The notes beneath the pieces were generated by a model that was not told the DNA's origin, searched no databases, and saw only the letters and a program-made list of their open reading frames with translations. A DNA stretch of 64,000 nt from Isurus oxyrinchus (lineage: Eukaryota): assembly GCA_026770705.1 (NCBI GenBank), contig JANJGN010000031.1, forward strand, positions 1,302,001-1,366,000, given 5' to 3'. Made by a program: the position numbers and the translations under genes. Shown piece by piece: positions 4,537 to 41,848 of this stretch (the stretch's first letter is position 1; every line of letters begins with the position of its first letter).

Positions 4537-4585
4537 AGGAAGCAGAAGGTATAGCTTGTCTTGGGCTTGGTGATTTTGTTTCACA
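4537..4585 (+). pseudogene. Leader exon of the inverted Vbeta, defective
   Basis: 49-nt phase-1 exon RKQKV*LVLGLVILFH with donor A|gtaagg; presumed ATG reads AGG; internal TAG. Confidence 0.6.
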
Positions 4586-4776
4586 GTAAGGAAATTTATT
4601 CAAAATTTCGCGCTTTCTTTTTCTTCCCCACCCCTCATTTTCTCCCTTTTTCTCTGCCCCCACCCCCTTCTCTTTCTTTATTTCCGCTCGCTTTTTTCTT
4701 TCATTATTTCGTTTGCTCTCTCCACTACCGGAATGTCGCTGTTTATTGACCTCCTCTCGCTCTGTATTCTTCCTCG

Positions 4777-5064
4777 GCGTGAACGCACAGATGATCCTCC
4801 AGTTTCCCGCTGCTGTCTCCAAATCTCTTGGGCAGGGAGTAGTTCTGAACTTCATCCTGCAGGGCACCAGTACTGGCCGTAGGCTCTGGTACAGGCTGTA
4901 CGCGAGGACGGAGCTCAAGTTAAAGTTTTACTCCCAAAATACACAAAGTGTGAGTCCCGGTGGACGGTTTCACCGGCCGGAGACCGAGTGGCTCCGATTT
5001 CAAGCTGGAGACCCCCAGCCTGCGGGCGAATCACTCGGCCGTGTATTACTGCGCCTGGAGTTTT
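4777..5064 (+). pseudogene. TRBV: Inverted Vbeta pseudogene 3' of Cbeta (TRBV30/Vbeta14-like)
   Basis: AQMILQFPAAVSKSLGQGVVLNFILQGTSTGRRLWYR...LKFYS, frameshift near 4958, then VDGFTGRRPSGSDFKLETPSLRANHSAVYYCAWS. First Cys is Phe (TTC 4851); acceptor AG reads CG. Confidence 0.93.
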
Positions 5065-5102
5065 CACAGTGACTCAGAGAGATGGGCAACTCAACAAAAA
5101 CC
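5065..5102 (+). other. RSS of the inverted Vbeta (23-type, 22-nt spacer)
   Basis: CACAGTG, ACTCAGAGAGATGGGCAACTCA (22 nt), ACAAAAACC. Confidence 0.93.
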
Positions 5103-5705
5103 TCAAAGGCGGCAGGAAACAGCTGTATATGAAATAGAAACAAACAGCCACCGTGTCAGTACGGGTTTGTTTTGCGGATTGCATCAATTTCTGAGAATAA
5201 GAGACTAAAATGATAGATGAAAACAGGAGAGATTGAAAGAACTAAGCAGTGCGGGGAAGAATGGAGTACACATTGAATGCAGAGGCGAAGAAGAGATAGA
5301 GTGTAAGAACCAAGGAAGAAATGATCGAAAGAGTGGAAGCGTACAGAAGAAGGGTTCCAGAATAGTACCAGTGATGTCAGTTAACTGGGCAGACACGAAA
5401 AGATGCAATTGTTCTCCTTAATGCAAGAGCAGATTTATCAGAATGGTACCAGGATTAAGCATCTTCAGTTACATAGACAGACTAGAGAAACTGGGATTCG
5501 GCAATATATGGAAGACACATGGGAGTTTTATGAGAGTTACTTACAATTATGCAAGGTTTCTTTAGGCGAGGGACTGTTTTGTTGCAGAACCCACTGCTTG
5601 ATATTTGTAGTGACATTTACAATTGAATCAGCTACTTTCCAGAAAATGAACAAGGGAGAATAGATAACTCGGGGACGATGGGCCGCATGGCCTCCATCTT
5701 GTACT

Positions 5706-5910
5706 AATATAGAACTCAAAACTGTATTAAAATCATCCGGCACCAGCCACATTTCCAATTAGATGTCCGAATCCTTTCAATCTTAGGGGGCTAACGATGC
5801 CCAATTGAGCATGGAGCTCAACAGAACCCCCCAGTGGCACACCACTGATTACTTCTGCGCCGGCAGTGATGCACAGCATGTGGAAATACCGTTTCTCTGT
5901 TATAGAAGTC
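5706..5910 (+). pseudogene. TRBV: Second inverted Vbeta relic (3' half) with 23-RSS
   Basis: NIELKTVLKSSGTSHISN*MSESFQS*GANDAQLSMELNRTPQWHTTDYFCAGSD, then CACAGCA-23-ATAGAAGTC (5872-5910). The 5' half is replaced by a LINE tail. Confidence 0.7.
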
Positions 5911-6309
5911 CCAAAACCTAACACAGAGCCCCAAGGTAGATGAAAAATTCTGCAGATGCTGGATATCTGAAACAAAAACAGAAACTGCTGGAAAAGCTTA
6001 ACTGGTCTAACAGATCTGTGGGGAGAAAGACAGAGTTAATGATTCGAGTCCGCATTTCTTCTTTGGAGCTAAAGAGAAGCAAAAATGTGATGAAATGTAT
6101 ACTGTTTGTGGGGAATGGAGCAGGTGACGCTGGATAGAAGGCCAGCAATAGGTGGGGGTAAAGAGCAGATCAGCAAAGGTGTCTTGAACAAAATGACAAG
6201 GAGGTGTTAGTGGTAGAGGTACTGCGTGTGGAACATCTTCAGTCTGTCCGCAAGCATGACCAAGGCCTCCCTGCTGCTTGCTATTTCAACACCTCATTCT
6301 GATGCTCCC

Positions 6310-6965
6310 GTGTCCTCCTTTTCTGAATTGTAAACTGCTTCCAATCCTCAGGTCTGTTGTTTTTCTGGATAATTTGTACGCCTTGTTCATTGGATCTAAT
6401 GCTATCTCTAATTCTCTTTGTAAGCCATGGTTTAGCCACCTTTCCTGGTTTAATTTTGCACCAGACAGGAATAAACAATTGTTACAGTTCTCCCATGCGT
6501 TCTCTGAATGTTTGCCATTGCCTATCCACGGTCATCCCTTTAAATAACGTTTCCCAATCTATCATAGACAACTCGCGCCTCATACAATCGTAGTTTCCTT
6601 TATCATTAAGACTTGGGGCCCTAGGCTCAGAATCAACTACGTCACTCTACATCTTGATGCGGAATTCTATCATATTATGGTCGCTCATCTCCAAGGGTCT
6701 TCGCACAACTAGACTGCCAATTATTCCTTTCACATTACACAATACCCAGCCAAGGATGACCTATTCTGTAGTTGTATCCTCAACGTATTAGTCCACAAAA
6801 ACATCCCGTATACACTCCATGAATTCCTCCTTTATGGTTTTCCAATAATTTGATTTGCCCAATCAATATGCATTTTAAAGTCACCCATAATTACAGATGT
6901 TCTTTTATTGCATACATCTCTAGTTTCCTGTTTAATGCCATTCCTAACATCATGACTACAGTTTC
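6310..6965 (-). mobile_element. CR1-type LINE ORF2 fragment
   Basis: KPWLTKRIRDSIR..NRPEDWKQF..KRRT resembles the CR1 endonuclease-RT linker. Confidence 0.7.
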
Positions 6966-6994
6966 CTCACCTTTATGTACTTATGCTTATGTAT

Positions 6995-7904
6995 CGCTAT
7001 GACACAGTCGATGGCAAATGCTGAGTTGTTCAAAACCCAAAGAGAAACTTGAAACAGCTGCCACAACTTGTTTTTCTGTTTGTATAAATTTCGAGATGCG
7101 TGCCTTGAATTCACTAGTAATAAGACCATCAAGTCTTATAGGTTTTACAAAACCAGGTTAAACATTTATTAATACAAGAAATTACTTTAACTATATAGAT
7201 AGATCTACAAATTACTACTATGATAACCTTTCAATCCCCTAATCAATCTAACTCCCAGTTACACTTTCGTTAAGGCAATCATAATGCACATAGATTTTAA
7301 AAGGCCCAGGCAACGAAACATGGTACCCTGAACAAATCGAATTTAAAGTGAGTTTTCTTAACTTCAGCCCTTTGAAGACAGCAGCTTGAGGCTTAGATGC
7401 TGAAGGCTTTTCTCACTTGTAAATCTTAAAATGCCTACCCTTACATACATCCTTCACTACTTAATATATATCTTCCCCTTTGAATACAAATATCCATTGT
7501 TTCACTATGTTTTGGGCATTATTTTCCTGATAATAAAAGTGACACATAGCACTATGTTTTACCAATAATCTTTAGGAAAAATAAATACACTCTTTCTAAA
7601 CTTCACCTGGCTAGGTGACATATTACACTCCTCCTTTTGAAGACAATCTCATCTGGTTTATTTAAAATACAAATGTTCCGTTGACACCTATGTTTCTAAA
7701 CTTCCCCATGTTTACAGAATTAACATTTCAAGCTAACTCTTCTTCTTACATCAAAACATCCAGACTGTAATTCAAGTAAATCTCACCCACACACAGAGAC
7801 CGCTATAGCACACAGACATATGTAGGCACATTGATATGTCCTACTATTACTCAATATTACACTAAATTCCAATAACATTTTGAGAATTATTATATCTCTC
7901 TGGC
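6995..7904. mobile_element. Solo LTR, older copy
   Basis: Similar along its length to 54125-55450; termini decayed. Confidence 0.55.
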
Positions 7905-8017
7905 AGTGTTCCCTGCGTTCTCCAGTTTCTAAAAGCTGAGTTCCCTCTCAAAAGGTCTGTTGTCTCCACTAGATTAATGTTCCCTCGGATCAATCACATG
8001 TTTTATCACCTGTCCTA

Positions 8018-8335
8018 ATGTGGGTCAATTTGTGGTTGTCTTACATTCATGGGAAGCATATCGGATGTAAATGCAGTTGTTGCTGTGACTCAGCTTACCT
8101 GCAACAAGTTGTGTTTTGGGGCCTTTGTGTCTGCCTTTCAGTGTAGCGGGTACAGAAGAAGCAGGTATCACAAACAACCTCTACTTTATGCTTCTCTAGG
8201 GAATTTCTTCACCATCCAGTGCCGAAGATGAGGTTATAAGGCATATCCAAAGGCTTTGCTCAAATCAACGCCATTCCTTTGTTCCCAAAGGCAAAATCTC
8301 TCCAGGTGTTCAGGCCCTAATTAGAATTGACTGTG
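8018..8335 (+). pseudogene. Possible third inverted Vbeta relic (leader and FR1)
   Basis: Acceptor tttcag at 8141; EAGIT then QPLLYASLGNFFTIQCRR* resembles V FR1 up to the first Cys; leader-like MWVNLWLSYIH upstream; no YxC or RSS. Confidence 0.4.
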
Positions 8336-8399
8336 AATCCAGGCATGGGGCCCCTGCAGTCCTTCATTAGGGGTCTCTTAATTTCTTCCATCCCCAAAT

Positions 8400-9010
8400 G
8401 TGGAACAGAGTATGAGGGATAAATGTAGGGAGAGTCAGATGGGGAGAAAGAGCATAGATAGATGGAGAGAAAGAGAGAAATTGAGGGAGAGAGAATAAAA
8501 AAAGAGGTGGTGATAGAGACCAAAAAACAGAAATACCACGAGAGACAAAGAGAGAAAGAGAGAAGAACAAATAGAGAGAAAGAGAAACAAAGAGAGGCAA
8601 TGACCGAAAGTGAGCAAGAGAGAGAGAAAGAGAGAGCACTGCATAGACAGAAAGAAGCGCGGATAGGAAAAGTGAGAGGGAGGGGCTAAGAGAGTGGCTG
8701 AAAGAAAGAGATAGAAAGAAAGATGTAGGACGAGGGATAAGGAGACAAACAGAGAGAACAAGCGAGAAGTAATGAGAAAGGAAAACACAGAAATAGAAAC
8801 AAAGGAAAATAAAGAGGGAGTGACAAATAAAGAAACAAAAAAAGAAATAGTGCTGGTAAGTAGGGAAGGAGCATTAAGGCCAAAGGGACAGAAAGAGAGT
8901 GCAAGAGAGGCAGAGAGTGTGAAAGAGAGGGAGAGGGAGGAAGAGAGATGGAAAACAAATGGCAGGCAAAAGAGAGGGAGAGAGAGAAGCGCAGAGACAG
9001 AGAGCTGGAA
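8400..9010. repeat. Polypurine (GA-rich) low-complexity tract
   Basis: Almost only A/G on the plus strand; similar tracts at about 3930-4050, 16800-17070 and 17690-18420. Confidence 0.85.
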
Positions 9011-9514
9011 TGGTGAACTGTACTCAATAATATGATCCTAGTTAAAAGGTGGCATTCTACATTGCACAACATTCCCTCAGTTCTTCCTCCTGCTGCGTCC
9101 TGACAAACCTGTTAAACTTCCTGCATTCAAATCAATATTAAAATCCCTCTAAAAGTTCTTATTGAGTCTGCTTTCTCCATCCTTCAAGGCAGCACGGACC
9201 AGATCATACCTGGCTGCATCAAAATATTTCTTCCTATTGCCCCTTATTATTTTTAACTAGGTATCTTAAAACTGCTTTTTCTTGTTACAAAGTGTCCTCG
9301 TGCAATGCTTAAAAATATTCAATTGCTGACCCAATCATTTTCCTTCAGTTGTTCTTTCCATAAAAGTTTTCAGGGAATTTGGTGCAAGTATTATTTTTTA
9401 ACTGATGTTGGGGCCAGTGCATCAGCAAAATGACATTCTTAACAACAAATGCTGCAAAATAAAAATGTGAGGCGAAGAGCAGGCAATTGAGACACATCTG
9501 TATATGTTATTACA

Positions 9515-12500
9515 TATAATAATGCAGCAAGACCTGGACAACATCCAGGCTTAGGCTGACAAGTGGCAAGTAACATTCACACCAGACAAATGACCAATCT
9601 CCAATAACCATTTCCAACATGAGAAAACCCAACCCTTGACGTTCATTGGCATTATCATCACTGAATTCCCCCAGTATCAACACCTTGAATGTTACCATTG
9701 AGCAGAAACTGAACTGGGCTATCCAGGTAAACGCTATGGCTACAAGAGCTGATCAGATGCTCTGAATCCTGCGACGACTATCACACCACCTGACTCCCCA
9801 ATGCCTGTCCACCATATACAAGGCACAAGTCAGGAGTATGATGGAATATTCTCCACTTGCCTGGATGAGTACAGCTTGCACACAAGAAGGCAGCTCACCA
9901 TCACCTTCTGAAGGACAACTAGGGATGGATAGTAAATGTTGGCTCAGCCAGCGAAGACCACACCCCGTGGATGAATAAAAAGAATCCTATTTGTTATTGG
10001 TAGATTTACAACTTGAAGAACTGTGCACAGGAATGGTAATTTCAACAAGATATGCTCTAACCGTCCCCCACGACGTTCACTGGCATGACCATTATTGAAT
10101 GTCCAACCATTAAGAACGGCCACGTTGCCATTACAGGAAACCTAATTGAACCAGCCATATAAAGATCGTGCCTACAGGAGCGGGTCAGAGGCTAGAAATC
10201 GTGTGCCAAATAATTCAGCTCCCAAAGCCTGTCCACCACCTACAACGTGCATGCAGTGTTCGACATGGAGGAGTACCGATTCATCAGCTGAGGTTGGGGG
10301 GTGGCGGCAGTGCTGGGAGTTGCCCTGGGAGTCCTCAACATTCACCATTCACTCTGGATCCCATGAAGTCTCATGGCATCAGGTGAAACATGGACAAGGA
10401 AACATCCTCCTGATTACCATCTCCCACATCCCCTTTGTTGATGAATTATTACTCCTCTATGTTGAGCACCAGATGGAGGAAGCACTGAGCATGACAAGTG
10501 CGTAGAATGCATTCTGGGTGGGGAAATTCAATATCCCTTACCAAGGATGGATCGGTACCATCACTACTGTCTGAGCTTGCCGAGTCCTAAATGGCATAGC
10601 TACTCGACTGGGTCTGCAACAGGTGGCGAGGGAACCAAGAAAAGGGGAAAACCCACTTGACCTGGTCTTCACCAATTTACCTATCGCAGGTGCATCCATT
10701 CATGTCAGTATCGGTAGGCGTGACTACCGCCCACACCTGTGAGAATGAAATCCCATCTTCACATTGAGGATAACCTCCTTCATGTTGTGTGGTGCTATCA
10801 ACATGCTAAATGGAATAGATTTTGAACAGATCTAGCACCTCAAAACTAAGTATCCAAAAAGTGATATGGTCCACCAGCAGCAGAATTGTCCACAGCTACA
10901 ATTTGTAACCTCATGACCCCCACCCTACCATTGGCATCAAGCTGCAGGATCAACCCTGGTTCAATGAACAGTGCCGGAGGGCATGCCAGGAGCAGCACGA
11001 GGCATACCTAAAAATGAGGTGTCAACCTGAGGAAGCTAAAACGCAGGACTACTTGCATAAAAAACAGCAGAGGAGTGCACAATAGACAGACCTAAGCGAT
11101 GCCACAACCAACGGATCAGATCCAAGCTCTGCAGCCCTGCCACATCCGGTCATGGATGTTGGTAGACAATTAAACAACTCACTTGAGGAGGAAACCGCAC
11201 TAATATCTCCATCCTCAATGATTGGGGAGTCTAACACATAAGTGCAAAAGATTAGAATGAAGCCTTTACAACAATATTCAACCAGAAATGCCGAGTTGTT
11301 GATCCCAGCATCACAAATGCCAGTCTTCAGCCAATTCCTTACAATCATCACGATATCAAGAAGCAGCTGTGGGCACTAGATACTGAAATAGTCATGAACC
11401 CTGACAACATTCCAGCAATGTTACTGAAGATATGTGTTCCAGAGCTATCTGCACTCTGAGACAAGCTGCCCCAGTACAGCTGCAATACCAGCAAAACTCC
11501 CCAGATATATCTTGTCCACAAGAAGCAAGAAAAATCCAACCTGGCCAATTACTGCCTCATCAGTCTACTCTCGATCATCAGAAAAAATGATATAAATTGT
11601 TGGCGACAGTGCTATCAAATGGCACATACTCTACTTTAACATGCTCACTGATGTTCAGCTTGGGTTCCGCCAGGGCCACTCTGCTCCTGACTTCATTATA
11701 GCCTGATTCCATGCACGAAAGAGCTGAACTCAAGAGGTGAGGTAAGAGTGACTGCCCTTGACATAAATGCAGCATTTGAACGAGTGTGGTATCAAGGAGC
11801 CCTAGCAAAACTGGAGTCAATGCGAATCATGGGGAACACTGTCCACTGGTCAGAGTCAATCTAGCACAAAGGAAGATGGTTGTGGTTGTTGGAGGTCAGT
11901 CAACTCAGCTCCAGGGCATCACTGCAGGAGTTCCTCAGGTAGTGTCCTCATGCCAAACATCTGCAGCTGCTTCATCAATGGTCTTACTTGCTTCATAATG
12001 TCAGAATGTGGGGTGTTCGTTGATAATGGCACAACGGTCAGCACCATTCATGACTACTCAGATACTGGAGCAACCCATGCCCATATGCAGCAAACCTGGA
12101 CAAGATCAAGGCTTGGGCTGACAAGGGGCAAGCAACATTCACGCCACACAAATGCCAGGCAATGACCTTTTCAACAAGAGAGAACCCAGCCATCTTCCCT
12201 TGACATTCAATGGCATTACCATCACTGAATCACCCGCTATCAGCATCCTGCAGATTTCAGTTGACCAGAAGCTGAACTTGACTGGCCATATAAATATTGT
12301 GAATACATATGCAGTTCAGAGGCTAGGAATCCTGCGGCCAGTAACTCACCTTCTGACTCCCAGGACCTGCGCACCATCTACAAAGGACAAGTCAGGGGTG
12401 TGATCAAATATTCCATAATGGCATGGATGAGTGCAGCTCCAACATCACTCAAGAAGCTCGACACCATCCAGGACAAAGCAGCCCATTTGATTGGCACCAC

Positions 12501-13390
12501 ATCCACAAATATCCCTCCCTCCACCACCGATGCACAATAGCAGCAGCGTGTACTATCTACACGATGCACTGCAGGCTCCTTAGGCAGCACCTTTCAAACC
12601 CACGACCACTGCCATCTAGAAGGAAAAGAGCAGTAGATATATAGAAACACCACCACCTGCAAGTTCCCCTCCAAGTCACTGGCCATCATGATTTGGAATT
12701 ATATCGCCGTTCCTTCACTGTCACTGGGTCAAAATCCTGGAATTGTCTCCCTAAACAGCACTGTGGATGTACCTATACTACATGACCTGCAGTGGTTGAA
12801 GAAGTCAGCTCACCACAATCTTCTCAAGGGCAATTAGGAAAGGACAATAAATGCTGCCCTAGCCAGTGACACCCAAATCCCGTGAAAGAATAAAGAAAGT
12901 CAGGAGTGTAATGGAATGCTCTACATTTGCCTGACTGTTTGCAGCTCCAACAACACTCAAGGAACTCGCCACCAACTAGGACATAACAGCCTGCTTGATC
13001 TGCACCTCAACCACCTCCTGAATCATTAACTCCTTCCACCTCTGTCTCACAGTGGAAGCAGTGTGTATGATCCACAATAAGGATTGGCAGTAATTCGCCA
13101 AGGCTCCTTGGATAACAGCTGTCCAACCTTCCACCACCAGCAGCTAGAAAGGCAAGGGTAAGATGTGCATGGGAACCCGACCAACGAAACTTCCTCTTCA
13201 AGTCTTCCACCATCCCAATTAGAAGCTACATCGTCGTTCATTCACTCCCACGGGATCAGAAAGCCGCAATTCCCTTCCTAGCAGCACTGTGGGTGTGTCT
13301 ACTCCACTTGAACTGCAACACTTTAGAATGGCAACTCACTACCCACTTGTCAAGAGCAATTAAGCATGGGCAATAATTGCCACATTAACA
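9515..13390 (+). mobile_element. Cluster of CR1/L2-superfamily LINE copies; longest about 10320-12895, degenerate endonuclease and RT
   Basis: RT-type motifs (ITAGVPQ, VDQKLN..HIN) and repeated 3' tails GGGCAATTAGG..AATAAATGCTG. Confidence 0.8.
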
Positions 13391-13425
13391 GTGACATTTA
13401 GCGAGTTAAGATCCCTCCTTTCTTT

Positions 13426-14117
13426 GTAAAAACTCAGCAGGTCTGGCAGCATCACCGGAGAAGAAAAGAGTTGAAGTTTCGAGTCCTCATGACCCTTCAA
13501 CAGAACTAGGTGAATACAAGGAAGGGGTGAAATATAAGCTGGTTTAAGGTATGTGTGTGTGGGGGGGGGGGGGGTGTTGGGTGGGGGGAGAGAGTGGAGG
13601 GGGGTGGTGTGGTTGTAGGGACAAACAAGCAGTGATAGAAGCAGATCATCAAAAGATGTCACAGACAACAGAACAAAACACATAGGTGTTGAAGTTGGTG
13701 ATATTATCTAAACGAATGTGCTAATTAAGAATGGATGTAAGGCACCATCCATTCTTAATTAGCACATTCGTTTAAATAATATGACCAACTTCAACACCTA
13801 TGTGTTCTTTTGTTCCGTTGTCTGTGACATCTTTTGATGATCTGCTTCTATCACTGCTTGTTTGTCCCTACAATCACACCACCCCACTCCACTTCTCTCC
13901 TCCCACCCAACCCCCACCCCCCACCCCCACATACACACACCTTAAACCAGATTATATTTCACCCCTTCCTTGGATTCACCTAGTTCTGTTGAAGGGTCAT
14001 GAGGACTCGAAATGTCAACTCTTTCCTTCTCCGCCGATGCTGCCAGACCTGCTGAGTTTTTCCAGGTAATCTGTTTTTGTTTTGGATTTCCAGCATCCGC
14101 AGGTTTTTTTTGTTTTT
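13426..14117. mobile_element. Fold-back Penelope-like insertion with 15-bp target-site duplication
   Basis: Arms about 13428-13737 and 13746-14061 are near-identical inverted copies; ATCCCTCCTTTCTTT at 13411-13425 and 14118-14132. Confidence 0.85.
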
Positions 14118-17094
14118 ATCCCTCCTTTCTTTACCCATTTAAGCCGACATCATTTTTTCTATTTCTTTATCCTTCACTCATCCAGGCACCACTTCTTTCC
14201 CTTGTAACTCGGCATCGAACATTTTAATAAGTGATCTATTCTAATGATGCTTTGTATTTTCAATCATTAATTGTCTTTACAAAACATTGCAGTTCGCTGC
14301 CTCAGTGCACGGCATATACAATGAAATAGGGTCTACCTGGGAAAGCACGGCTGCCGGAAATACACGAAAGGTGCAGGGTCGAAAGACAACGCACAGCACA
14401 GGGAAAACACAGCAGAACCGGGACTTAAATGTACTAGAAATTGTAGGAAATATATCCAGAGTCGAAAGGGGAAACGAGGAACTACAGGATATTCACAATA
14501 AATGAGAGTCTGAAGTCCGCCAAAAGAGCATTGCAACACGCAAGATGCACATAGACTAAAGAAAGATTTATTTAATTATCTATTATGGTGGGATTGGAAC
14601 TCATATCTCCAGGTGCTTCACTCAGGATTGTTAGGCTAGTCATATAACAGCACTGTTATCTCGCACTTTAACCTGTTTTCATGCCTCAGCCATGCTAGTG
14701 GAAAATGAAGTGTCCGTGGTTCCCTGCAGGTGATGTGTGATGCTCTGACTCTCATGTCTTTAAACACAAACACCAGGCTGTTATCTTTCTTGGTGCATAT
14801 TTTGTCCTATTTAAAAATTGGCAGCTACACCCTGATAACCGCACACCCTGACTGTTTTCTGTCTCTTTATCTCTGCACTATTTAATAATGCTTCTGCAGT
14901 TTTTGACAATTTTTTTCCACAAGAGCATCGAAACAAAATGTGCAGCTATTTGAGGCGATTGATTGAATTAGACAGTGTAGATAGGAGAATGGCCCTACGA
15001 AGGAGCAGGCACTGAATCGCCAAATGACCTCCGTCTGTGCTGTAACATTTTGTGGTTCTATGACATCTACCCGGAAATGTGCTCTGATGCGAGTGTCTGA
15101 AAATATTTCCAACAAAATTTACAATCAAAAATTATAGAGGGAAGAAGATATAGCGCCCAAATCACTTTCATTCCCAGTTTTCTATTCCGTCGAGGGCAGA
15201 AGATTTAGGAGAGATCAAATCGAGGTATTAGAAATGATTAAATTGTTTGATAAGGTAGACAGAGACAAAAACTCTTTCTCTGTTAGGGACATCCAGAACA
15301 ATGGGATCTACCCTTAGAATTCAATCTAGGCTGCCCAGCGGTACTGTCAGGAGGCACCCGACACAAAGGTGATTGGAAATCTGGAACTCACTTCCATCAA
15401 CAAGCTGTTGAGGCTGGCGTGCGTGCGGGGTGCGGGTGAGGTTGATGGTGTTGGTGTCTACACCAATGTTAAAACCAATATTGTGATTTTTTTTTGTGAG
15501 GGAAAATATTAAGCCGCATGGTCGGAGACACGTAGATGGAGTTAGATGGAGATTAACCATGATGTCATTGAATGGCTGAAGACACTCAAGGGGCCGTTGC
15601 CTGTTTGTATGTGGCTTTGCCTTTCGGTGATGATGTTGTTAGCTGATTGACAGTTTGAAAGCCTAACAATGTAATAATAAAGTTACCTTGTTTGCAGGCT
15701 TGTGCATAAGCTGGATCATAACATTCGATGACTGGTCCCTAAATGCCAAAGGTTGATTAACCATAAGAAATCAAATCTCACCAAACCCTAATTATTGCTT
15801 TAGACGCGAATAGCAAGTGTAACACAACTCTTGTTTCTTTCTAACCTTCCAACAATCACAGATTATTTCAGCACGGAACAGAAGGCAGTCACTAGGCCCG
15901 TCGTACATGTGTTTTCTCTTTGAAAGTGTTACTCCATTAGTCCCACTTCCCCATCGCCTGCTGTTAACACATAAGTCTACAAATATTTTCCCTTTTAAGT
16001 AAATACCAAATGCCCTTTTTAAAGTGACTATTCAAACTACTACTGACAACCTTCCAGGAAATGCATCCAGATAACGACGTCTCGCTATGTAATTTCTGTA
16101 TGTCGCCTCTCATTATTTTGGCAAAGACATTAACTATGGGCCCTCTTGTTACCCATCTGTATGTCTATCTATCTACCTACCTGATCTCAGGGACTGTGCC
16201 TATAACATAACAGGGAGCAGTCAGCACCAGAGTTCACATTGAATCATCAACACAAAATACGACAGATACTGGAGATCTGAAATAAAAAAAAAACCCTGGA
16301 AAAACTGGCAACATCTGTGGCGAGAGAAACAGAGTTAATGTGTCAAATCCAAAATTATTTTTCAGAACTTTCGAAGAACACTCATGCCTGACTGGAAATC
16401 TTAACTCTATTAACCTGGTCTGTTCATCTTGAGCTGCAGTAGGAAAGGAGGGATTAAAGAATGACAGATTGAACTAAAGCGAGTTTGTTTGAATAAAGGG
16501 AAGAGGCGGTGGTGTAATTCTAACGCCACTAGACTAGTGATGCAGACACCCAAGGAGACAGGGTAGAGGCAGCAGCTGGTGGAATTCAAATTCAATAAAT
16601 AAATCTGGAATAAACAGGGACGATATAACTATCATCAGTTGTTGTAAAATACCATCTGGCTCATTTCTTCCTCTTTAGGGGGGGACAATTGTTGTTGATA
16701 GATGTGAGCCAGGCCCAAGGTAATGTGCCTAACTCTTAACTACCCTATGAAATGGCTCAGCCAGCCACTCAGCTGAAGGGCAATTAGTAATGGGTAAGTG
16801 AGGGGGAAAGGAAGAGCGCAAGAAAAAAATAGGAATAAGTAAGAAAGAAAAGTGGAAAGAACGGCAGAATGGAAAGAAGAAAGTAATGAATGAGAGAGAA
16901 AGAAAGGATAACAGGAATGAAAAAATAAAAAAGGATGAGAGAAGCAAAGAAATATAGAAAGAAGGCGAGCTTGATTGCACGAAAGGAAGACTGAAAGAAT
17001 CAGAAAGGAAAGCGTTGACAATGAAAGTGAGAAAGGTAAATGGAAGCAAAGAGCTGAAGACAGGAAGCACAATTACATGAAAACAAAATGCTAA

Positions 17095-17450
17095 AGTGCG
17101 GAAGTTCAGTTACGACGTGTCCAGCAGCCACGTTCGTTTGCAAAGGGGCGGCAGGTGCAGGCGTTCAGAGAGAATTTATCACCCAGGAGGAAATGAGAGG
17201 GCAACATCTCAGCCAGCCATCCTCCAAACTCAAGAGTACCTTGGCTACAGGTGCCACGTTCCGTTAAACCGCAGAGTGAAACTCGGGCCCACGACCTACT
17301 TTGGAAATCCTGTGCCACGTCTGTTAGCTCAAAGCTGCATCCCACCACTTCCGTTTGATATTTTTCCGTGCAGCTGCTGTTTTTCTACCCAGTTCGTGTC
17401 TTGGTTTGAGTCAGTACTTTCCAGTCTGATCAACCGACGGAAATAACAAT
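17095..17450. promoter_or_regulatory. Candidate TCR beta enhancer (Ebeta-like)
   Basis: Non-repetitive, CpG-rich block between Cbeta and the inverted Vs. ETS CGGAAGT (17099) and ACTTCCG (17347), RUNX AACCGCA (17267), E-boxes CAGGTG (17152, 17248) and CAGCTG (17371), AP-1 TGAGTCA (17407), three GCCACGT. Confidence 0.55.
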
Positions 17451-18689
17451 AGACATGGATTTTAAAGTCAACTTACATTATTGCTTTCTCGTCTGCTTTT
17501 GCACTCATGCAGCTGAATCCTTTAATAAAACTAAAATTCAATTTTCGCCACATTATAAGATATAGTAAACTCCTGATCAAGTCTGCCTTCCCGCGTTGAT
17601 TTCTTCTATTGCAACTGTTCGCATTTTTGCATGCCGTGTGCTCGTTGAAGTAAATAATCGGTTTGGGGTGTGTAACAGTGTTGGAAAAGAGGAAGGGGGA
17701 GATGCGAGATCGAATTCGGCGAGAGTGAAAGCGTGAAAGGGAGAGAGAAAGATAAAGGTATAAAGACAGAGGAGAAAGAAAAAGAGTGGGAAAGGCCGAA
17801 AGCCACAAAGTCAAAGGCAGAAAGACGGGTGAGAGAGAGACAGAAAGAGGCAGAGAGAGAAAGCAAGAGCCGGGGAAGGAAAGGTGGTAGAGAGCTAGGT
17901 AATTGGCAACAAGGGCAAGAAATGGAGAGAGGCAGAAAGACAGACAAACATACAGAATTAGAGTGAGCGAGGCAGAAGGAGAATGTGAGAGAGGGAGAGT
18001 TAAATAGATATGGACAGGGTTTAGGAAGACGAAGTAAAAGTCAAAAAGTCAGAGGGAACTGCAGAGAAGCATGGAGAAAGAAGGAGAATTGAACAGTAGG
18101 CAGGTAGAGAAAAATGAGAAAGGCTGGGACAGACGAGAAAGATAGGAAGAGAGATGGCACAATCGATATATAGGCACATGGAGAGAGAGAAGAGAGACAA
18201 AGCGCAAGAAAAAACAAAGAGAGGATATGGCCAGGAAGCGACATAAGTGAATGTAGGGTGGATAGAAAAGCAGTAAGGAGTAGGTCTTAGGAAAAGAGAG
18301 CATGGAGGTTTATAGGGACAGAGAACTTGTGGGAAAGTGAGGAAAGGAATTGGAACAAGGGCAGATGGAGCCAAGCAAAGAAAGAAACATTGGAATAGAA
18401 GGACAGAAGGAGATACTGTCCATGACAAATTGTACCGAGTTTCCTAAACATGCTGTGCTTGCAACTTTACCAAACTGGTTTAAAGAATATACTGATGTAT
18501 ATGTGCATCACTCAGTGTGATAACAAACGTCTCTCTCAATGTCTGCATCTCATGAAAATCTCTTTATATTTCATAGGTGTCTGGCTCTATCCCTCCCCCA
18601 ACAGCATGGCTCAGCACTCCCATGGGGCAAAAGGTGGACACCAGCTGCCCTGACATTCGTAATCTCCTACTTAGACACTCACAGAATAA

Positions 18690-21525
18690 CAGAATCAAAC
18701 TGTGCAGAAGAGGCCCTTGAGCCCATCGAGCCTGCATCGACACGTGGGAAACACCTGACCTACATGCCAAATCCCATTTACCAGCACTTGGCTAATAGCC
18801 TGGAATGTTATGACGTGCCAAGCGCTCATCTAGTTCCTTTTGAAAGGATGTGAGGCAACCGGCCACCACCATCCACCCAAGCAGTGCATCCCAGACCGGC
18901 ACCACCCTCTAGGTAAAAAAATGTTTCCTCACATCCCCCCTATACCTCCTTCCCCTCACCTTGAAATTGTGTCCCATCGTGACTGACCCTTCAATTAAGG
19001 GGAACAGCTGCTCCCTATCCAGTCCATGACCCTCACAATCTTGTACACCTCGATCAGGTCGCCCCCCAGTCTCCTCTGCTCGAACAAAAACAATCCAGGT
19101 CTATCCAACCTCTCTTTTTAGCTTAAACGTTTCATCCCCAGCAATGTTCTGGTTAATCTCCTCTGCACCTCCTCCAGTACAATCACGTCCTTCCTATAAT
19201 GTGGCGACCAGAACTCCACACAGTACTCCAGCTGTGGCCTCAATAAGGTTCTATACAAATCCAACAAGACTTGTCTCCTTTTGTAATCTATTCCTCGATT
19301 TAGAAAGGCAAGTGCTAATATGTCATTTTCATCACCTTACTAAATGCCCCTCCGCCTTCAAAGATCTATGGATACACAGGCCAAGTTCCCATTGTTCCTC
19401 AGAACTTCCTAATGTCATGCCGTTCATTGAATATTCCCCTGTCAAATTACTCCTTCCAAAGTGTATCACCTCACACTTTTCACTGTTAAATTCCATCTGC
19501 CACTTACCTGCCCATTTCACCATCCCGTCTACATCTTCCTGTAGCCCAAGACATTCAATCTCACTCTGAACCACCCGGCCAATCTTTGTGTCATCCTCAA
19601 ATTTACTAATCCTACCCCCCACATAGTCATCTATGTCGTTTATATAAACAACGAATAATAGGGGACCCAGCACAGATCCCTGTGGTACGCCACTGGACAC
19701 TGGATTCCAGATACAAAATCAACCTTCTGTCCTCATCATCTGTCTCCTACAACTAAGCCAATTTTGAATCCATCTTATTAAATTGCACTGTATCCCATGT
19801 GCATTTGCCTTCTTTATAAGTCTCCCATGTGGGACATTGTCAAAGGCTTTGCTGAAATCCATATAAACTATTTCAACTACACTACCATCATCTATATATC
19901 TAGTCACCTCCTCAAACAATTCACTCAAATTTGTTAGGCATGACCTCCCTCTAAAAAAGCCATGCTGACTATCGCTGATCAAACCTTGCCTCTCCAATTA
20001 GAGATAGATTCTCTCGTTCAAGTTTTTCTCCAATAGCTTCATTACCACTGACGTGAGACTCACTGGCCTGTAGTTCCATGGCTTCTCTCTACTGTGCTAC
20101 TGTGCTGCACTTTTCTTTGTTTTATGTTATTTGACCCTTCTTAAATAGCAGAACCACATTCGCTGTTCTCCAGTCCTTGAGTCCTCCCTCGTGGCCAGAG
20201 AGGAATTAAAAATTTGGGTCAGAGCCCGTGCGATGTCCTCCCTTCCCTTCCTCAGCAGTCCAGGACACAAATCCTCCAGACCTAGTGTTTTGTCAACTTT
20301 TAAGCCTGCCAACACCTCCAATACCTTGTCACTCCCTACATTAATTTGCTTAAGAATCCTTCAGTCTCTCTCCCCGAGTTCCATACATTCATCCTCATTC
20401 TCTTGAAGATGGATAGAAGTATTCGTTCAACACTCTACCGATGTCCTCTGGCTCCACCCATGGATTGCCATCTTGGTCCCGAATGGGCCCTACTCCTTCC
20501 CTGGTTATCCTTTTCCCATTGATATACTTATAGATTACCTTGGGGTTTTCCTTACTTTTACCAGCCAGAACTCTCTCATCTCCCCTTTTTGCTCTTCTTA
20601 TTGCTTTCTTAAGCTCTACCCTGCACTTTTTGTACTCCACTAATGACTCTACTGATTTGCGCCCCTTGTACCTGCTAAAAGACTCTCTTTTCTTTCTCAT
20701 TGTGTCCTGAATATCTCTGATAATCTATTGTTGTCTAGGCTTATTACTCCTTCCTATCACGCAAGAGGGAACATATTGAGCCTGTGCCCTGTCCATTTCC
20801 TCTTTGAACGGCCCCCACTGCTCCTCTGTAGATTTTCCCACAAATATCAGTTCCCAGTCTACCTTGGCCAGATCCTGCCTTATTTTACTAGAATCCGCAC
20901 TCCCCCAATTCAAAACATTTTTTTTTTGCAACTTGTCTATTTATTTGCCCATGGAAAGCGTAAATTGCACCACATTGTGTTCACTATTACTAAAACGTTC
21001 CCCACCACCTCCCCAGCCACCTGCCTGGCTTCATTCCCCAGAATTAGATCCAACACTGCACCTCCCCTTGTTAGACACTTTTCATATTGACCTACGAAGT
21101 TCCCTTGTACACATATTACGAAATCTACTCCATTCAATCCTTTAACATTATGCCTATCCCAATTAATGTTTGGAGAGTTGAAATCACCCTATTGTTATTG
21201 TTTTACACACCTCCGCGAATTGTGCACATATTTGCTCCTCAATTTCCCGATGACTGTCTAGAAGTCTATATTAAACACCTAACAATGTGGCTGCCTCTTT
21301 TTTATTCCTAAATTCTACCCACAAAGCTTCATTCCATGTCCCCTCCAAGATATTATATCACCTTACTACAATCACTGACTCCTTAACTAATAATGTGATA
21401 ACTCCTCCTCTTTTGCGCCCTCCCCTGTTTCGCCTGAAGGTTCTATATCCCGGAATATTGAGCTTCCAATCCTGTCAATCCTTCAACCACGTCTCCGTGA
21501 TGGCTACCATATCACAATTCCCTTA
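18690..21525 (-). mobile_element. CR1 LINE, 5'-truncated, about 2.8 kb
   Basis: SQHGF..GRSCLTNL, VYMDFSKAFD.VPH, SGVPQGSVLGPLLFVVYIND, KFEDDTKIG. Confidence 0.92.
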
Positions 21526-22528
21526 GTGACTGTAAGCGCAACTGCCGGTTTGCAGCAAATCATTTACAAGGAAGCGGTGTTTTGACATTTATGCCAAATC
21601 TGAGAATGAAATTGTCCAAACCAGGAACCGACAGAGAAGATTCTTGGTGAAATTGAATGTGAGGACCATCGTAGAAGCGTTCTAGGAGTGGCCTTGGGCC
21701 AAAAGTCCAGAGATATAAATTCAACTCCTATTACAGCAGCTGGAGAACTTAAATTAAGCCTGAGAACATGGAATAAAATCTATCATCACTAATGGTGACT
21801 TTTAATCTACTGGCTAATTGCAAAATCCAATCTGGCTGGGAGGGATTATATCATCTTTACGCAGTCTGCCTTCCATGTGACTCCAGGCCCACAATTTTGC
21901 GGTTGACGCATAATTGCCCTGTGAAATAGCCTAGCAGACCATTCGGTTGTATTCAAGTAGGTGAGGGCAATTAGGAATACGTATAGTATGCTGGCCTTGC
22001 CAGCTTTCCGCACATCCCATGATTTAATTTAAAGAAAATTCCCGCCCAAAGGTAGTAGTCCAATGGTTGGCACCCAGAATCATATACTGCAACACAAAGA
22101 AAACGAGAGGACGACTCGAACCGGTCACAGAACTTGGAATCTACTCAGCCCACTATGCCTACTGGATAAGATTGCCGGGAGGCCCTACAGCCCACAAGAA
22201 TTGTTGCTCTGGACGTGGAGTTCTTTCAACATTCTCGAGTCTGTTGTATAGTGACAGGAGGAGAAGATATATCCCTCTGGTGCATATTACATAGGAACAC
22301 GATGATGCAATTAAATACCCAGCACCTGCTCCGACATTGAATTAGACAGTGGCTGATCTGCTTCTTAACCCCATTCCCCACCTTTGTTGGATATCCCTTG
22401 ATAGCCATACTAAACAAACACCTATAAAATGTCTATGTACAAATTTTTGTCTTTACAAAAGCATGGCGTTTGGGGGAAAAGCTGAAATAACGATGAAAAG
22501 AAACGGGTTTCTTTGTAGAAATATTCTA

Positions 22529-22534
22529 TTTATT
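22529..22534 (-). terminator. Candidate polyadenylation signal of TRBC
   Basis: AATAAA on the minus strand about 750 nt after the stop, followed by T-rich sequence. Confidence 0.5.
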
Positions 22535-23277
22535 TCTTAAACAATGAACAAATAGAAAGAAATGTAAAAAGAACAGAAGTCACCTGTCCATACAGGATGC
22601 ACTGAGAAGCCCATGACAAATAATGGACAAGTGTGAGCCCAGTCTCCATCCACAATATTTGAACTGAATTCTAAAACTAACAATAAGAGTTGTGCATTAA
22701 TCTACAAGAGTAAATACGTTGATATGCGCACCAAACAGAATTTTAGTTACAGTGTACCTTCTGCTGCTTAGCAATATGCACAGCTTTACTAGACTGGCAA
22801 AGGAGATTTTGTTTCATGGGGAGATTAAAGAGGATGTAATTGTTCACCTTGGGATAAAGTGGAACAAATGGCTGACTTTTTTTCAAACAGCAAGCATTTG
22901 CACAATGGGACAAATGGCATCCTTTAGTGCTGATAGATCCTATACTTCTTTATAAAGAGTCAAAGGACACAGAATAACAATGAATAAGCAAATAATCTAG
23001 AAAAAATGTTGTGAATTTCTCAAAACGTAACCTGTTCAGGCAGCAGGAATTTATAGCAATCTCAAGATTATGAACGGATTCATTCCAAGCGAAAAGCTAA
23101 AATTTCATTTCGTACATTTCATCCATTAATTTCACACAACAACAGTGCGCCTATGTTTACACCGGTGTGGCGGGAGTTGATCGGCAAAATTCACCCCCTA
23201 GATATTCACAGTAGTCATATTTTCTCTTCTCCTTCTCTCGTGTTTTCCACCGTTTATCTGTTCAACGCTTGTGATGG

Positions 23278-23304
23278 TCAATCAAATCTTTTGCTGTAAG
23301 ATGT
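23278..23304 (-). CDS. TRBC: TCR beta constant exon 4 coding part (cytoplasmic tail and stop)
   Basis: T-rich tract then gcacag|ACA TCT TAC AGC AAA AGA TTT GAT TGA = TSYSKRFD*; phase 0 matches the exon 3 donor. Confidence 0.85.
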   Translation of the reverse strand, partial: TSYSKRFD

Positions 23305-23799
23305 CTGTGCACAATGAAAAAAATACAGTCTGCCTTTTAATCATTTTAAAACCAGAATCATACAGCACAGAAGAAGGCCAACCTCCTGGCATTTCTAAAG
23401 GGATAGCCAATTAATCCCAATTCCCAGCTGTCTTCCCATAGCCCTTATCCAGATCGCAACACTTATACATCCAGCGTCATTTTGAAAGTTACTATTGAAT
23501 CTGTTTCTATTGCCCTTTCTGGCTGTCAGTTCCAAATCAGGACAACTCGCTGCATAAACCGCCACCACCACCATCCCCCCACCCCCATCTCCCCCCACCC
23601 CCCCACCACCCCCCCCCCCCCCCAGCTCCTCCTTTGGTTTTTTTGGTCAGTTATTTTATACTTCTGCGCTCTGCTTACCAATCCACCTACCACTGGACTC
23701 AGTGTCCCATTACTTACACAAGGCTCTCAATTGTGTCTGAGCCATTTCTGCACTCTTCCCTTCCCCACCCCACCCAGAACCTCTTTTTCCACCCCGCCA

Positions 23800-24730
23800 G
23801 CTTCCGCATTCAATGTATTATCTTCACCAACTCCAGCAGTGTGCCACCACTAGACACACCCTCTCCTTTACTTTAAGCATTCTGAAGGACTATTCCCTCT
23901 GGCCCACTCTTCTATCAAGCCCAACACCACATCCTTTCCCATGGCAACGTCCCATGCAATCACCGGAGGTGTAACACCTGGCCAGTTACTTTCTCCCTCC
24001 TCACTCCTTTAAGGTCAAGCAACGATTTACTTGTGCTTCTTTCAATCTAGTCTATTGTATTCGCTGCTCACAGTGTGATCTTCTTGGCACTGGGGAGACA
24101 AGTCGCCGACTGGATGAGCATTTTATGCAGCACCTTAGCTCAATTCTCCAGCACGACCCTGACCGCCAGATCTCTTGCCATTTCAATTCACCGTTTTGCT
24201 CTCATGCTCTCATTCTTGTCATTGGCCTGTTGCAATGTAAAACCCAATGCAAGCTTGAGGAACAACACCCCATCTTCCGATTAGGCAATTTACAGACTTC
24301 CAGACTCAACATTCAGTACAACAACTTCAGACCATGAATTGTGTCCTCCATTTTGTAGTTTCCCCGAGTGCCAACCTGTATCTTGGTTCTAATGCCTTGC
24401 TTTCAGGTAGCTCTGACCTTTATTCTCTAGACCAATGCTTTGTTCCTTTACTATACCATTACCACCCTCTTTGCCTTTGTTCCATGACATAGCTGTCATT
24501 CGCTTTCCCCCGCATTCTAACCTTCTGACCTTCCCATTTTCTCCAGCTGACTCTCTCCCTTTTCAATAGCTTAAAACGGATCACATCCTTACTTCTCTTC
24601 CATTCCAAAGAAGAGTCATATTGGAGTCGAACGGTTAACTGTCTGTCTCTCTTCAGAGTTGCTCCCTGAGTTTTTCCAACATTTTCTGCTTTATTTAAGA
24701 TCTCCAGCATCAACAGTATTTTGCTTTTAT
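23800..24730 (+). mobile_element. Penelope-like element with GIY-YIG endonuclease remnant, in Cbeta intron 3
   Basis: RFTCASFNLVYCIRCSQC..GETSRRL.EHF.QHL at about 24022-24136. Confidence 0.8.
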
Positions 24731-25664
24731 CTCACCATTTACACCACTGACTCTGTTCATGATTTTCGAACACTTCTGTGAAATATCCCCTTACACTTCC
24801 CTGCTGTAAGGAGCACAATCCACTTTTCATGCAATAACAGACGTGATGCATCCCTGATACCATTCAAGGAAATCTCTTCATGCTGTGCAATGACTTGACA
24901 TCACTGCCCTGACAAAATCAGTAATAGTCGTTATGACTCATACTATCCTGGTCATGCTTTCTTGATCTTAAACCCAAAGCGTTGTTAAAAAGCAGAAAAC
25001 TGTGTTTATTTGTAAAAGAAAATCATGAATCACAACAGAATAAAATATATTCAATTCTGGTTTTTTACATAGTGTCATGGGCAATTTGAGTGAAATGGAA
25101 GTTTTTTTTTCATTCGAATAATGTAGAATAAAAATCAACAATAGGAGCCTCTAACATGAGATATGCACTGGCACATCCAACAGTGAATTCAACGGAAACA
25201 TATTTTTACCCAGGGACCAGTTAAAATGTGGAACTTGCCACCATTTACAGTTATTGAGGCGAATAGTAAAGATGCTGCCATGGCAGAAGGTAGATAAGCA
25301 AATAGATGTACGCAGTAACAGAAGGTCATGGTGCTAAGGTCAGATTAAGTGAGGTTGGGCTAGTATGATGCGTAAACAGTGGCAGGCACAATTAGGGCTG
25401 AAAGGGCTATTTCTGTCCTATAAGTGTAATTCTATGAATGAATAGATGGATTTCTTCATTGACATCATTTAAAATCATGTAAAACCGTTAGCATGAACGT
25501 GGAGTGCAATTTTGCTGCAGAAAATCTGTAGCATGAGATTCGGTCAAAGTATAGGGACCCAACGACTGAAGGAACAACATTTTTGTTCCTGCTTGGGCAC
25601 CATAAAGAACCCAGCTTCACTTTTGGAATGCATATTTTAATACATTTAGTTAGTTTAATCTGAC

Positions 25665-25771
25665 CTTGGTTTTCCAAGCAAGTATTGAGACGAATAGTCC
25701 ATAAAAGATGCTTTTGCAGATCAGGGTCAGGTACGTCAATTTTGCTGCTCCCATGCTTTGCATTTTCGCTT
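25665..25771 (-). CDS. TRBC: TCR beta constant exon 3 (transmembrane)
   Basis: cacag|AA...AAG|gtcaga; 107 nt; EAKMQSMGAAKLTYLTLICKSIFYGLFVSILAWKTK with the intramembrane Lys and the Y..L..K...Y pattern of TCR beta TM. Confidence 0.95.
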
Positions 25772-27423
25772 CTGTGAAGTAAATATAAGGAACAATTTGG
25801 AATTCCTGTTCTCTAGAAGTAAGGAATTCTATTGTTAGGAAATGAAACCTATCTTAATCTCATGATCCCAGCCTAAGAGTTGAGTTGTAAAAAGATAATG
25901 TTCGCCTTTGATGCGAGAAGTTGCTCTACGCCCTACCCCACTACAGTAAGCCTACTTCAATGACGTCCCATATCCAATTATGAACACTGCTATCTCCTGT
26001 GGGGATCATGCTAACATTTCCACCGCCAACCCTCAAAGACGAAGCAATATCTTAATTGGTAGCTCAGGAGTGTATGGGTGGAAGCTTGTTAAACCATAAC
26101 TCCGTGGGGAGATTTCTCCCTTCGGGGCCAAAAGATCATGCCCCACTCCAGAGCCCCATAATCCATATCAAAAGTCCCAGTGTCAGTAGAGCCGAAACAT
26201 TGCACGATTGGACCAACCATTTTTCAGACAGGGCCTTAGATCGATGAGCTGATGCCCTCTCTGGCGAATGTAAATGAATCGGCAGCAGCATTGTGATCTC
26301 CAGTATGCCTGTTCCTTAACCGACGTCACAAATAACAGATTATCTGGTCATATATCTCCTTGTTTTTTGTGGGATGTTGCTACGTGCAAATTAGTTTCTG
26401 CAACCCCTACGTTATAGTACTGATTTAAATTTCAAAGTACTTCATTGGCTACAAAGAGTTTCGGGATGTAATTCGGTCCTGAAAGGCACTACATAAAACT
26501 CCCCTTCTCCAAAGAGCGGAACTTCACTTCTTGTTTCTGCGCTACATTCAAACTATGATCTCACAGGAGGAACTTTAAGTTTTAAGACAGATGGACTCCC
26601 TCCATCCACCGCCAGGCCTTTCTTTTCCCTCATCACAGCGAACGTTCATTTCTATGAATTGAGTCCAGGAGACCTCGATACTAATTCAGTGGGCCATCAT
26701 TGTCTGGAAAGCCTAGCTACATTTCTCTCCCGACATGAATTTTCTAATAAACTCTGTGGCAAACGCAGTTTTGTTTTTAATGGAAAGCAAGTGTTTCCAA
26801 ATGTTGAAATGACTGTATGCACGCAATATCCGATACGGTACTAATTGCAGAATTACAATTTATCGCTCTGACTATTTAAAATCATAGCCTTATTATGGCA
26901 TAACAGAAGGCCATTTGGCTCGTCCAGCCTATGCCGTCTCTGTAGAGCTGTTCCGTTAACTCCATTCCCCTACTCTATCTCTGTAGCCCTGCAACTTTTT
27001 TTCTTTCAACTATCCATCTAATTTTCTTTTGAAATCATTGGTTACCATCGCTTCCAACACAATCATGGCCATTTCAGATCATTGCCTTTCTCTGTATGCA
27101 AAGAAAAGCTCTTTGTTGCATTACTCCTACATCTCGTACCCAAAACATTAAAGCTGTGCCCCCTTGTCCTTGTGCCATCAGGTAATGGGACAGTGTTTCT
27201 TTGTCTACATTATCTAAATCTATCATAATCTTGTACACCTGCATCAAATCTTCCCTCACTCCTCCTTTCTTCCAAGGAGAGCAATCCCAGCTTTCACAAC
27301 CTTATAGCTAAAAGCCCCATCCCTGGAAACATTTTGGTAAGTCTCCTTGGCGCCCTCTTAACGACCGTCTATTCTTCCCAAAGCGCGTTGCCCAGAAGCA
27401 GATAGAAGGATATGGAGGCTTAC

Positions 27424-27444
27424 CTTTACTTACACCGCAGGTTG
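27424..27444 (-). CDS. TRBC: TCR beta constant exon 2 (connecting peptide with interchain Cys)
   Basis: ttttgtttcag|CA ACC TGC GGT GTA AGT AAA G|gtaagc: 21 nt, phase 1/1, reads ATCGVSK, comparable to mammalian DCGFTS. Confidence 0.9.
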
Positions 27445-27765
27445 CTGAAACAAAATCAAAATAAAAGCAACGAGTTAGCACCAGATGCTTTATGAAATCA
27501 GTGTATATTTGCAGATGATCACCGTTGTAAGACACACTCAGCCTGATACATTATGACAGTCGTGTTAATATAGTTTTGAATATTGTTTCCGAGTACATTT
27601 ACATGTTCTATGTGTTTTTTGAATGATTTATTTAGTCATTTATTGATTTACAGATTCATCTACGTGTTACTCATTCATTGTGAAGGGCACGGGCACTACG
27701 TAAGTGCAAGATATTGCTTCCTTTGAAGCTAAAATGCAATGGCATGGGCCATTTTTATGACCTAC

Positions 27766-36816: not shown

Positions 36817-36847
36817 CACAATGCTGCAGGCCAGTGGTAGAACTCAT

Positions 36848-41795: not shown

Positions 41796-41848
41796 ATAAA
41801 ACGATGCATTCACATATATATATTTATACTTATGTCAACGTAACTTAC

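What the first reader, a model, noticed from the sequence alone, without database searches (positions are those of the whole stretch)
4537..8335. A cluster of inverted Vbeta relics rather than a single one
Beyond the CAWS V there is a second plus-strand V 3' half with its own 23-spaced RSS (5706-5910) and a probable third leader/FR1 relic (8018-8335). Mammals have one inverted V. This may be an inverted V array, or the edge of a second, oppositely oriented TRB unit. Intact members could lie left of the window.
Basis: partly seen in the sequence, partly recalled or inferred. Interest (0 to 1): 0.7.

Follow-up and report, generated by a model that had tools for sequence, protein, structure and literature searches.

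The report
Shark T-cell receptor locus doubled tail-to-tail
These broken gene pieces are the inner edge of a row of dead, backwards-facing T-cell receptor beta variable genes in a shark whose whole beta-chain unit exists twice, as mirror images facing each other, likely from one old inverted duplication; this layout was not found described for sharks in the papers searched.

Summary
The window holds a shark TCR-beta D-J-C unit on the minus strand. The CAWS V (4777-5102) and the half V at 5712-5910 are real plus-strand Vbeta pseudogenes; the proposed third relic (8018-8335) shows no V similarity in any test. Three more plus-strand Vs lie 3-12 kb left of the window, all broken. A second complete D-J-C unit lies on the plus strand about 100-120 kb left. 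It is an inverted copy of the window's unit (38 collinear blocks, 87.8 kb, 81% identity) with its own array of eight 3'-inverted Vs that mirrors this one. Of the 13 Vs between the two C genes, one has an open frame and good RSS, and no leader was found for it. Spliced C transcripts of each unit appear in public contigs (left type in organism A, right type in relative B). Inverted V arrays (tuatara, newt) and opposed TRB pairs (salmonids, head-to-head) are known; I found no description of a tail-to-tail shark TRB in nine searches. New variant of a known kind.

The parts
4547..4585 (+). Leader-exon remnant of the CAWS Vbeta pseudogene; start codon lost, GT donor at 4586
   Evidence: Alignment with intact family members
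4777..5064 (+). CAWS Vbeta pseudogene exon, 3'-inverted relative to the window's C: splice acceptor lost, first Cys replaced by Phe, 8-nt deletion near 4953 with frameshift; same clade as the TRBV30-like family
   Evidence: (E 2e-51); family-to-Mel5/TRBV30 link
5065..5102 (+). RSS of the CAWS V: consensus heptamer and nonamer, 22-base spacer
5712..5871 (+). 3' half of a second inverted Vbeta pseudogene (two stops, ends YFCAGSD); no alignable 5' half, repeat-derived DNA upstream
5872..5910 (+). Decayed 23-spacer RSS of the half V (2+4 mismatches)
7960..8380 (.).
6317..56197 (-). Window's part of the right arm of the inverted duplication, collinear with C31:1220301 down to 1162633 at about 82% identity
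25662..28116 (-). Cbeta gene of the window's unit: C1-set exon 27766-28116, hinge exon near 27425-27443, transmembrane exon 25662-25772; open frames and GT/AG sites
   Evidence: (C1-set E 5.8e-18)
36760..45080 (-). Nine Jbeta segments (FGXG motifs at 36791, 40315, 41223, 41605, 41879, 43463, 44131, 44367, 45024)
45463..45542 (-). Dbeta (45502-45514) with 3' 23-RSS (consensus) and 5' 12-RSS
55578..55850 (-). Broken Vbeta, proximal end of the 5' array
60327..60605 (-). Broken Vbeta, 5' array

Best explanation
The two real relics are the innermost members of a dead five-gene array of 3'-inverted Vbeta segments belonging to one of two mirror-image shark TCR-beta units, which likely arose by an old inverted duplication of a cassette made of 5' V array, D, nine J, C and 3'-inverted V array. 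Shown: both D-J-C units are intact and face each other tail-to-tail, with 8 minus-strand and 5 plus-strand Vs between the C genes. Inferred from RSS orientation and the known behaviour of mammalian TRBV30: an inverted V would join its own unit's DJ by inversion, whereas joining the other unit's DJ would put the coding joint on an excised circle; outer Vs would join the near unit by deletion and could join the far unit by inversion. The window's relics cannot give a protein and are decaying; the repertoire likely comes from the outer arrays.
For: Second D, nine matching J and a C (91% aa) on the plus strand at C31:1182586-1202764. Inverted collinear chain of 38 blocks, 87.8 kb, 81.1% identity, including introns and flanks; no N in the 864 kb checked. 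Mirror pairs in the V tree: 1249819 with 1289979 (97/92), 1243590 with 1298633 (99/99), 1247462 and 1292351 in one clade (98/95); outer arrays pair as well (67 of about 109 V hits used). Relic status. Organism B holds the CAWS V (7-11 differences, no gaps over 372-390 bases in 3 of 4 runs, so the frameshift is shared) and the half V region (20-23 differences over about 870-890 bases in 3 of 4 runs). Transcripts: a spliced C contig in X20 (organism A) has 8 differences where the left unit has 9; a spliced J1-C contig in X17 (organism B) has 11 differences where the left unit has 34 and keeps the codon that the left C lacks. A named relative's gene model P0001 is of the left type.
Against: The CAWS V and the half V have no mirror partner in the left array, and five left-array Vs have none in the right; the chain breaks between window positions 19 and 6317, so later losses or gains must be assumed. 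The join and orientation of the arms rest on one assembly; no long read or second assembly was examined. Both units were not shown in one other species: B is shown for the right unit, P0001 for the left. RNA status of the runs is a guess, the C contig of X16 is a left/right mosaic, and no V(D)J junction was seen. The open-frame inverted V has no leader that I could find within about 940 bases.
Confidence: 0.85

Rival explanations
1. The plus-strand relics are the leftover 5' V array of a further D-J-C unit that once faced the window's unit and was lost, not Vs that ever rearranged by inversion.
For: The inverted arrays repeat the family order of the main 5' arrays in miniature, and the locus holds C pseudogenes without D or J at C31:911995 and 1099265.
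Against: No D, J or C remnant lies between the relics and the window's C, or at the mirror place in the left unit. The same arrangement (plus-strand Vs, the 8-kb element, then a minus-strand C) recurs beside both C pseudogenes, which fits a cassette built this way from the start.
Confidence: 0.1
2. The mirror unit is an assembly artefact: two haplotypes or a misjoin placed in inverted order.
For: Only one assembly was seen; parts of the locus carry near-identical tandem copies where misassembly is common.
Against: The arms differ by about 19% with arm-specific insertions, far beyond allelic difference; both types occur among organism A's contigs; no gap lies in the 864 kb checked.
Confidence: 0.04
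3. The element at 8018-8335 is a very old V pseudogene of a family that no longer has an intact member, making the window's cluster three genes.
For: It occurs only in this locus (3 copies genome-wide at first look, 5 with a finer local search), in V orientation at the C-proximal end of the inverted arrays, and short stretches read like FR1.
Against: No test beat its shuffles for any of the five copies; start, splice and Cys positions are not kept; no RSS follows it. A duplicated flank or a regulatory element 3' of C fits equally.
Confidence: 0.15

Closest known systems
3'-inverted TRBV of amniotes (human TRBV30, duck Vbeta4; five in tuatara; PMC11754216 and PMC5278385, passages seen)
   Same: V segments 3' of Cbeta in opposite orientation with 23-RSS. 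The outermost left inverted V and an intact member of its family have Mel5 beta (TRBV30 per PMC5887915) and 5xov as best single-domain PDB hits (E 3.5e-18 and 7.4e-20).
   Different: Here the arrays hold several families, 12 of 13 members are broken, and the TRBV30-like family is also expanded in the forward 5' array.
Salmonid and pike paired TRB loci (PMC10464911, passages seen)
   Same: Two complete V-D-J-C units side by side in opposite orientation, one D and about ten J each.
   Different: Those are head-to-head with the main V pool in the middle. The shark pair is tail-to-tail, with main arrays outside and inverted arrays inside.
Newt and axolotl TRB (PMC12698447, PMC12529555, passages seen)
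   Same: Several D-J-C units and clusters of inverted Vs; in the newt these are used by inversion.
   Different: Their D-J-C units are in tandem, in one orientation, with trypsinogen genes inside. No Eph receptor or trypsinogen hit lies at this shark locus; a C1s-like exon flanks it.
Multiple TCR-beta C genes in horned shark (Hawke, Rast and Litman 1996; recalled, paper not seen)
   Same: More than one Cbeta; gene models with near-identical C lie on four different contigs of H. francisci.
   Different: Orientation and inverted arrays in that species were not examined here.

Membership tests
TCR-beta (TRB) locus | C1-set constant exon closest to TCR-beta chains, with hinge and transmembrane exons | tested here: met
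   C1-set E 5.8e-18; 19 hits, several named TCR beta chain of sharks; exons
TCR-beta (TRB) locus | D with 5' 12-RSS and 3' 23-RSS, J segments with FGXG, V with 23-RSS | tested here: met
   D core matches the conserved TRBD quoted in PMC11754216 over its first 11 bases
Vbeta pseudogene (5712-5910) | Significant similarity to TRBV and an RSS after the last Cys motif | tested here: met
   RSS decayed
Vbeta pseudogene (8018-8335) | Significant similarity to a V exon or V leader | tested here: not met
Functional 3'-inverted TRBV | Intact leader, splice sites, frame, Cys-Trp-Cys and RSS | tested here: not met
   0 of 5 plus-strand Vs; 1 of 8 minus-strand Vs has an open exon and RSS but no leader found
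Functional 3'-inverted TRBV | Rearranged by inversion in T-cell cDNA | not tested
   No reads were laid on the open-frame inverted V; V and J lie too far apart for one call
Amniote inverted-TRBV clade (TRBV30) | Groups with TRBV30 in a tree of vertebrate TRBV | tested here: inconclusive
   Best single-domain PDB hits only; no cross-species tree was built
Salmonid-type paired TRB | Head-to-head units with the V pool between them | tested here: not met
   Units are tail-to-tail
Tetrapod TRB synteny | Trypsinogen cluster and Eph receptor gene beside the locus | tested here: not met
   0 of 14 Eph hits on C31; the only C31 trypsin-family hit among the best 150 is C1s-like

The most novel reading that the evidence does not exclude
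The ancestral jawed-vertebrate TCR-beta unit had V arrays on both sides of D-J-C, the 3' one inverted and ending in a TRBV30-like gene, so that mammalian TRBV30 is the last survivor of that array. This shark lineage multiplied the cassette in the manner of Ig clusters (two live units facing each other, two C pseudogene cassettes, and a third intact divergent D-J-C on another contig), and outer Vs are shared between the facing units by deletion or by long inversion.
Probability: 0.3. Interest if true: 0.72.

Novelty: new variant of a known kind. Interest (0 to 1): 0.5.

Why it matters
Reviews state that shark TCR genes are single translocons (PMC6795676; PMC12227049 for alpha/delta). Two facing beta units per chromosome, plus a third divergent unit, raise the question of how a shark T cell keeps to one beta chain, and the unit-specific J and C differences listed here make this testable by repertoire sequencing. 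An inverted TRBV30-like V in a cartilaginous fish also bears on when the conserved 3' inversion arose; published evidence seen here reaches amphibians and salmonids (PMC11754216). The relics themselves are dead pseudogenes.

Tried and rejected
Third relic as V: Pfam, PDB (left copy), local DNA and protein profiles, BLOSUM against 42 shark Vbeta, a five-copy DNA profile, a profile of 11 named shark V regions and DNA alignment with 17 leader-plus-V regions: nothing beyond shuffles. Organism B contigs barely cover 7984-8385 in 4 of 4 runs; runs were read 48-100%, so this is no evidence of absence. No RNA holder is on record for the C region; RNA status of X16-X20 is a guess. No V(D)J junction was visible, where repeats filled the joint and loose-end tables. 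Genome-wide Pfam V-set search listed no C31 hit among the best 150. Flanking-gene search: 84 of 161 non-repeat ORFs scanned, giving only reverse-transcriptase, ZCCHC3-type and the protease hit. C2826 holds D, six J and C but no V and no copy of the 8-kb element. Literature: nine searches on shark TRB organisation found no description of a shark TRB germline layout; two key papers were not held, subscription journals are mostly missing, and the elephant shark supplement gave 0 hits, so absence from print is not established. Earlier scan notes: nothing near, in relatives or by sequence; two unrelated shark notes.

Full report
Setting. The window is G000 C31:1302001-1366000. It carries a TCR-beta unit on the minus strand: D at 45502-45514 with 12- and 23-spaced signals, nine J motifs between 36791 and 45024, and a C gene with exon 1 at 27766-28116 and a transmembrane exon at 25662-25772. 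The C exon is a C1-set domain. All 19 database relatives are from sharks, and the best is a Carcharodon gene model at 92%.

The observation. The CAWS V is real and dead. Against intact family members it has lost the start codon and the splice acceptor, has Phe for the first Cys, and has an 8-base deletion that shifts the frame, though its RSS is near perfect. The segment at 5706-5871 is a real V 3' half: DNA profile E 4.9e-6 against E 8.1 for the best control hit, BLOSUM 73 against a shuffle maximum of 45, 64-66% identity through the RSS to pseudogenes at C31:1428153-1428377 and 1134694-1134918, and a clade with them at 99/92 (its branch is long). Pfam and the PDB alone do not detect it. Its RSS has six mismatches. 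The third candidate fails. It has five copies in the locus, but none of the five beats its shuffles in BLOSUM, profile or DNA tests, while three decayed control Vs beat all 100 shuffles. The supposed start, splice sites and Cys are not kept among the copies. I treat it as an unidentified duplicated element and leave about 15% for a very old V.

What lies beside the window. I took 1.02 Mb of C31 (742001-1766000) and contig C2826. Three more plus-strand Vs lie at window-relative -12021, -9649 and -3367; each has a stop, a frameshift or a lost RSS. A second D, nine matching J (76-89 of about 91 bases identical per pair), one extra J upstream of D, and an intact C lie on the plus strand at C31:1182154-1202764. 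The region 1125424-1253449 is an inverted copy of 1286779-1436795: 38 collinear blocks (37 of them within these bounds), 87.8 kb aligned, 81.1% identity, with insertions private to each arm. The two units therefore face each other tail-to-tail. Between the C genes lie 8 minus-strand Vs (7 at profile E below 1e-3, the eighth at E 0.003 and above all 60 shuffles) and 5 plus-strand Vs. The three outermost Vs of each array are mirror partners by flank alignment and by tree; the inner members, including both window relics, have no partner. One of the 13, at C31:1235481-1235762, has an open exon and a good RSS and a catshark relative at 68%, but I found no leader for it. A profile census gave 109 V hits from 844684 to 1601410 (hits can be split, so this is approximate); 35 had open frames with Cys, Trp, Cys and an RSS in the 864 kb scanned. 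Further left are two C pseudogenes without D or J (911995, 1099265), each with plus-strand Vs and a copy of the 8-kb element on its 3' side. A third intact, divergent D-J-C (56% aa) lies on C2826. The 33-kb spacer is largely an inverted copy of the locus's left flank and includes a broken copy of a C1s-like protease exon.

Independent data. Relative B holds the CAWS V at about 97-98% without gaps in 3 of 4 runs, so the frameshift is shared; B has the Cys codon at 4851-4853. B holds the half V in 3 of 4 runs, where its end reads closer to the family motif. The two relics were thus already broken in the common ancestor (inferred; not all differences were listed for the half V). In contigs guessed to be RNA, organism A gives a spliced left-type C (X20) and unspliced pieces of both types; B gives a spliced germline J1-C of the right type (X17). 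X16's C contig is a mosaic of both types. P0001 is of the left type, with the extra J and the missing codon. Both units are thus transcribed, but this was not shown within one species by spliced reads, and no rearranged junction was seen.

How it works. Shown: layout, intactness, pseudogene status. Inferred from the 12/23 rule: a V 3' of C and inverted joins its own DJ by inversion, as described for mammalian TRBV (PMC10464911) and the newt (PMC12698447). The same V lies downstream of the other unit in the same orientation, so joining there would excise the coding joint. Outer Vs can join the near unit by deletion and, in principle, the far unit by inversion. The simplest history is a cassette with Vs on both sides of D-J-C, duplicated with inversion, followed by decay of nearly all inner Vs. 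C exon 1 is more alike between arms (335 of 351 positions) than the arm average, which fits selection or gene conversion.

Comparison with what is known (all papers seen as passages unless stated). Multiple inverted TRBV are known from tuatara (five; PMC11754216) and newt, and are stated for alligator and axolotl (PMC12698447). Opposed TRB pairs are known from salmonids and pike, but head-to-head (PMC10464911). Reviews give shark TCR as translocon (PMC6795676). The CAWS family's best single-domain structural-database hits are Mel5 beta and 5xov, and Mel5 uses TRBV30 (PMC5887915); this is a best-hit relation, not a tree. Nine searches found no account of a shark TRB germline layout, but two key shark papers were not held, and an older report of several horned shark Cbeta genes is recalled, not seen.

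Verdict. Two of three relics are real, and both are dead. The array and the second unit are real. The architecture is a new variant of known arrangements, in a lineage where it appears undescribed. Interest 0.5.

Noticed in passing
G000 C2826:19078-35465 (L098-L100): Third, apparently intact TCR-beta D-J-C unit (D, six J, C 56% identical to the window's C) on a 58.5-kb unplaced contig with no V on it.
   Followed up: partly
G000 C31:911995-912280 and 1099265-1099462 (L059/L060, L041): Two Cbeta pseudogenes without D or J, each about 4 kb from a V of a family (starting EHQISQ) seen only there; the V at 1103440-1103724 has an open frame and RSS.
   Followed up: partly
G000 C31:1182154 (L012): An extra J segment upstream of the left unit's D, a copy of its third J region; also present in gene model P0001.
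   Followed up: no
G000 C31:815464-816162 (L089) and 1275933-1276626 (L003): Complement C1s-like protease exon flanking the locus, with a broken copy in the spacer between the two arms.
   Followed up: partly
G000 C31:1447947-1601411 (L029-L064): Recent tandem expansion (period about 22 kb) of the TRBV30-like CAWS family in the right 5' array, with several identical copies; some members end CPR instead of CAW.
   Followed up: no
window 27837 and 27988 (C exon 1): Organism B's right-type transcript shares two residues with the left-type model P0001 that neither copy in this genome has, a hint of gene conversion between the two C exons.
   Followed up: partly
G000 C31:964074-984016 and 1052613-1072323: An approximately 88-kb tandem duplication with near-identical V genes; a recent duplication or an assembly effect.
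   Followed up: no
G000 C33:7206774 and C34:18.4-19.7 Mb: A divergent Eph receptor exon and a large multi-exon trypsin-family cluster lie on other contigs than TRB, unlike tetrapod synteny.
   Followed up: no
window 25662-25667: The donor after the window's transmembrane exon reads GTCAGA where the left unit has GTAAGA; effect on splicing unknown.
   Followed up: no
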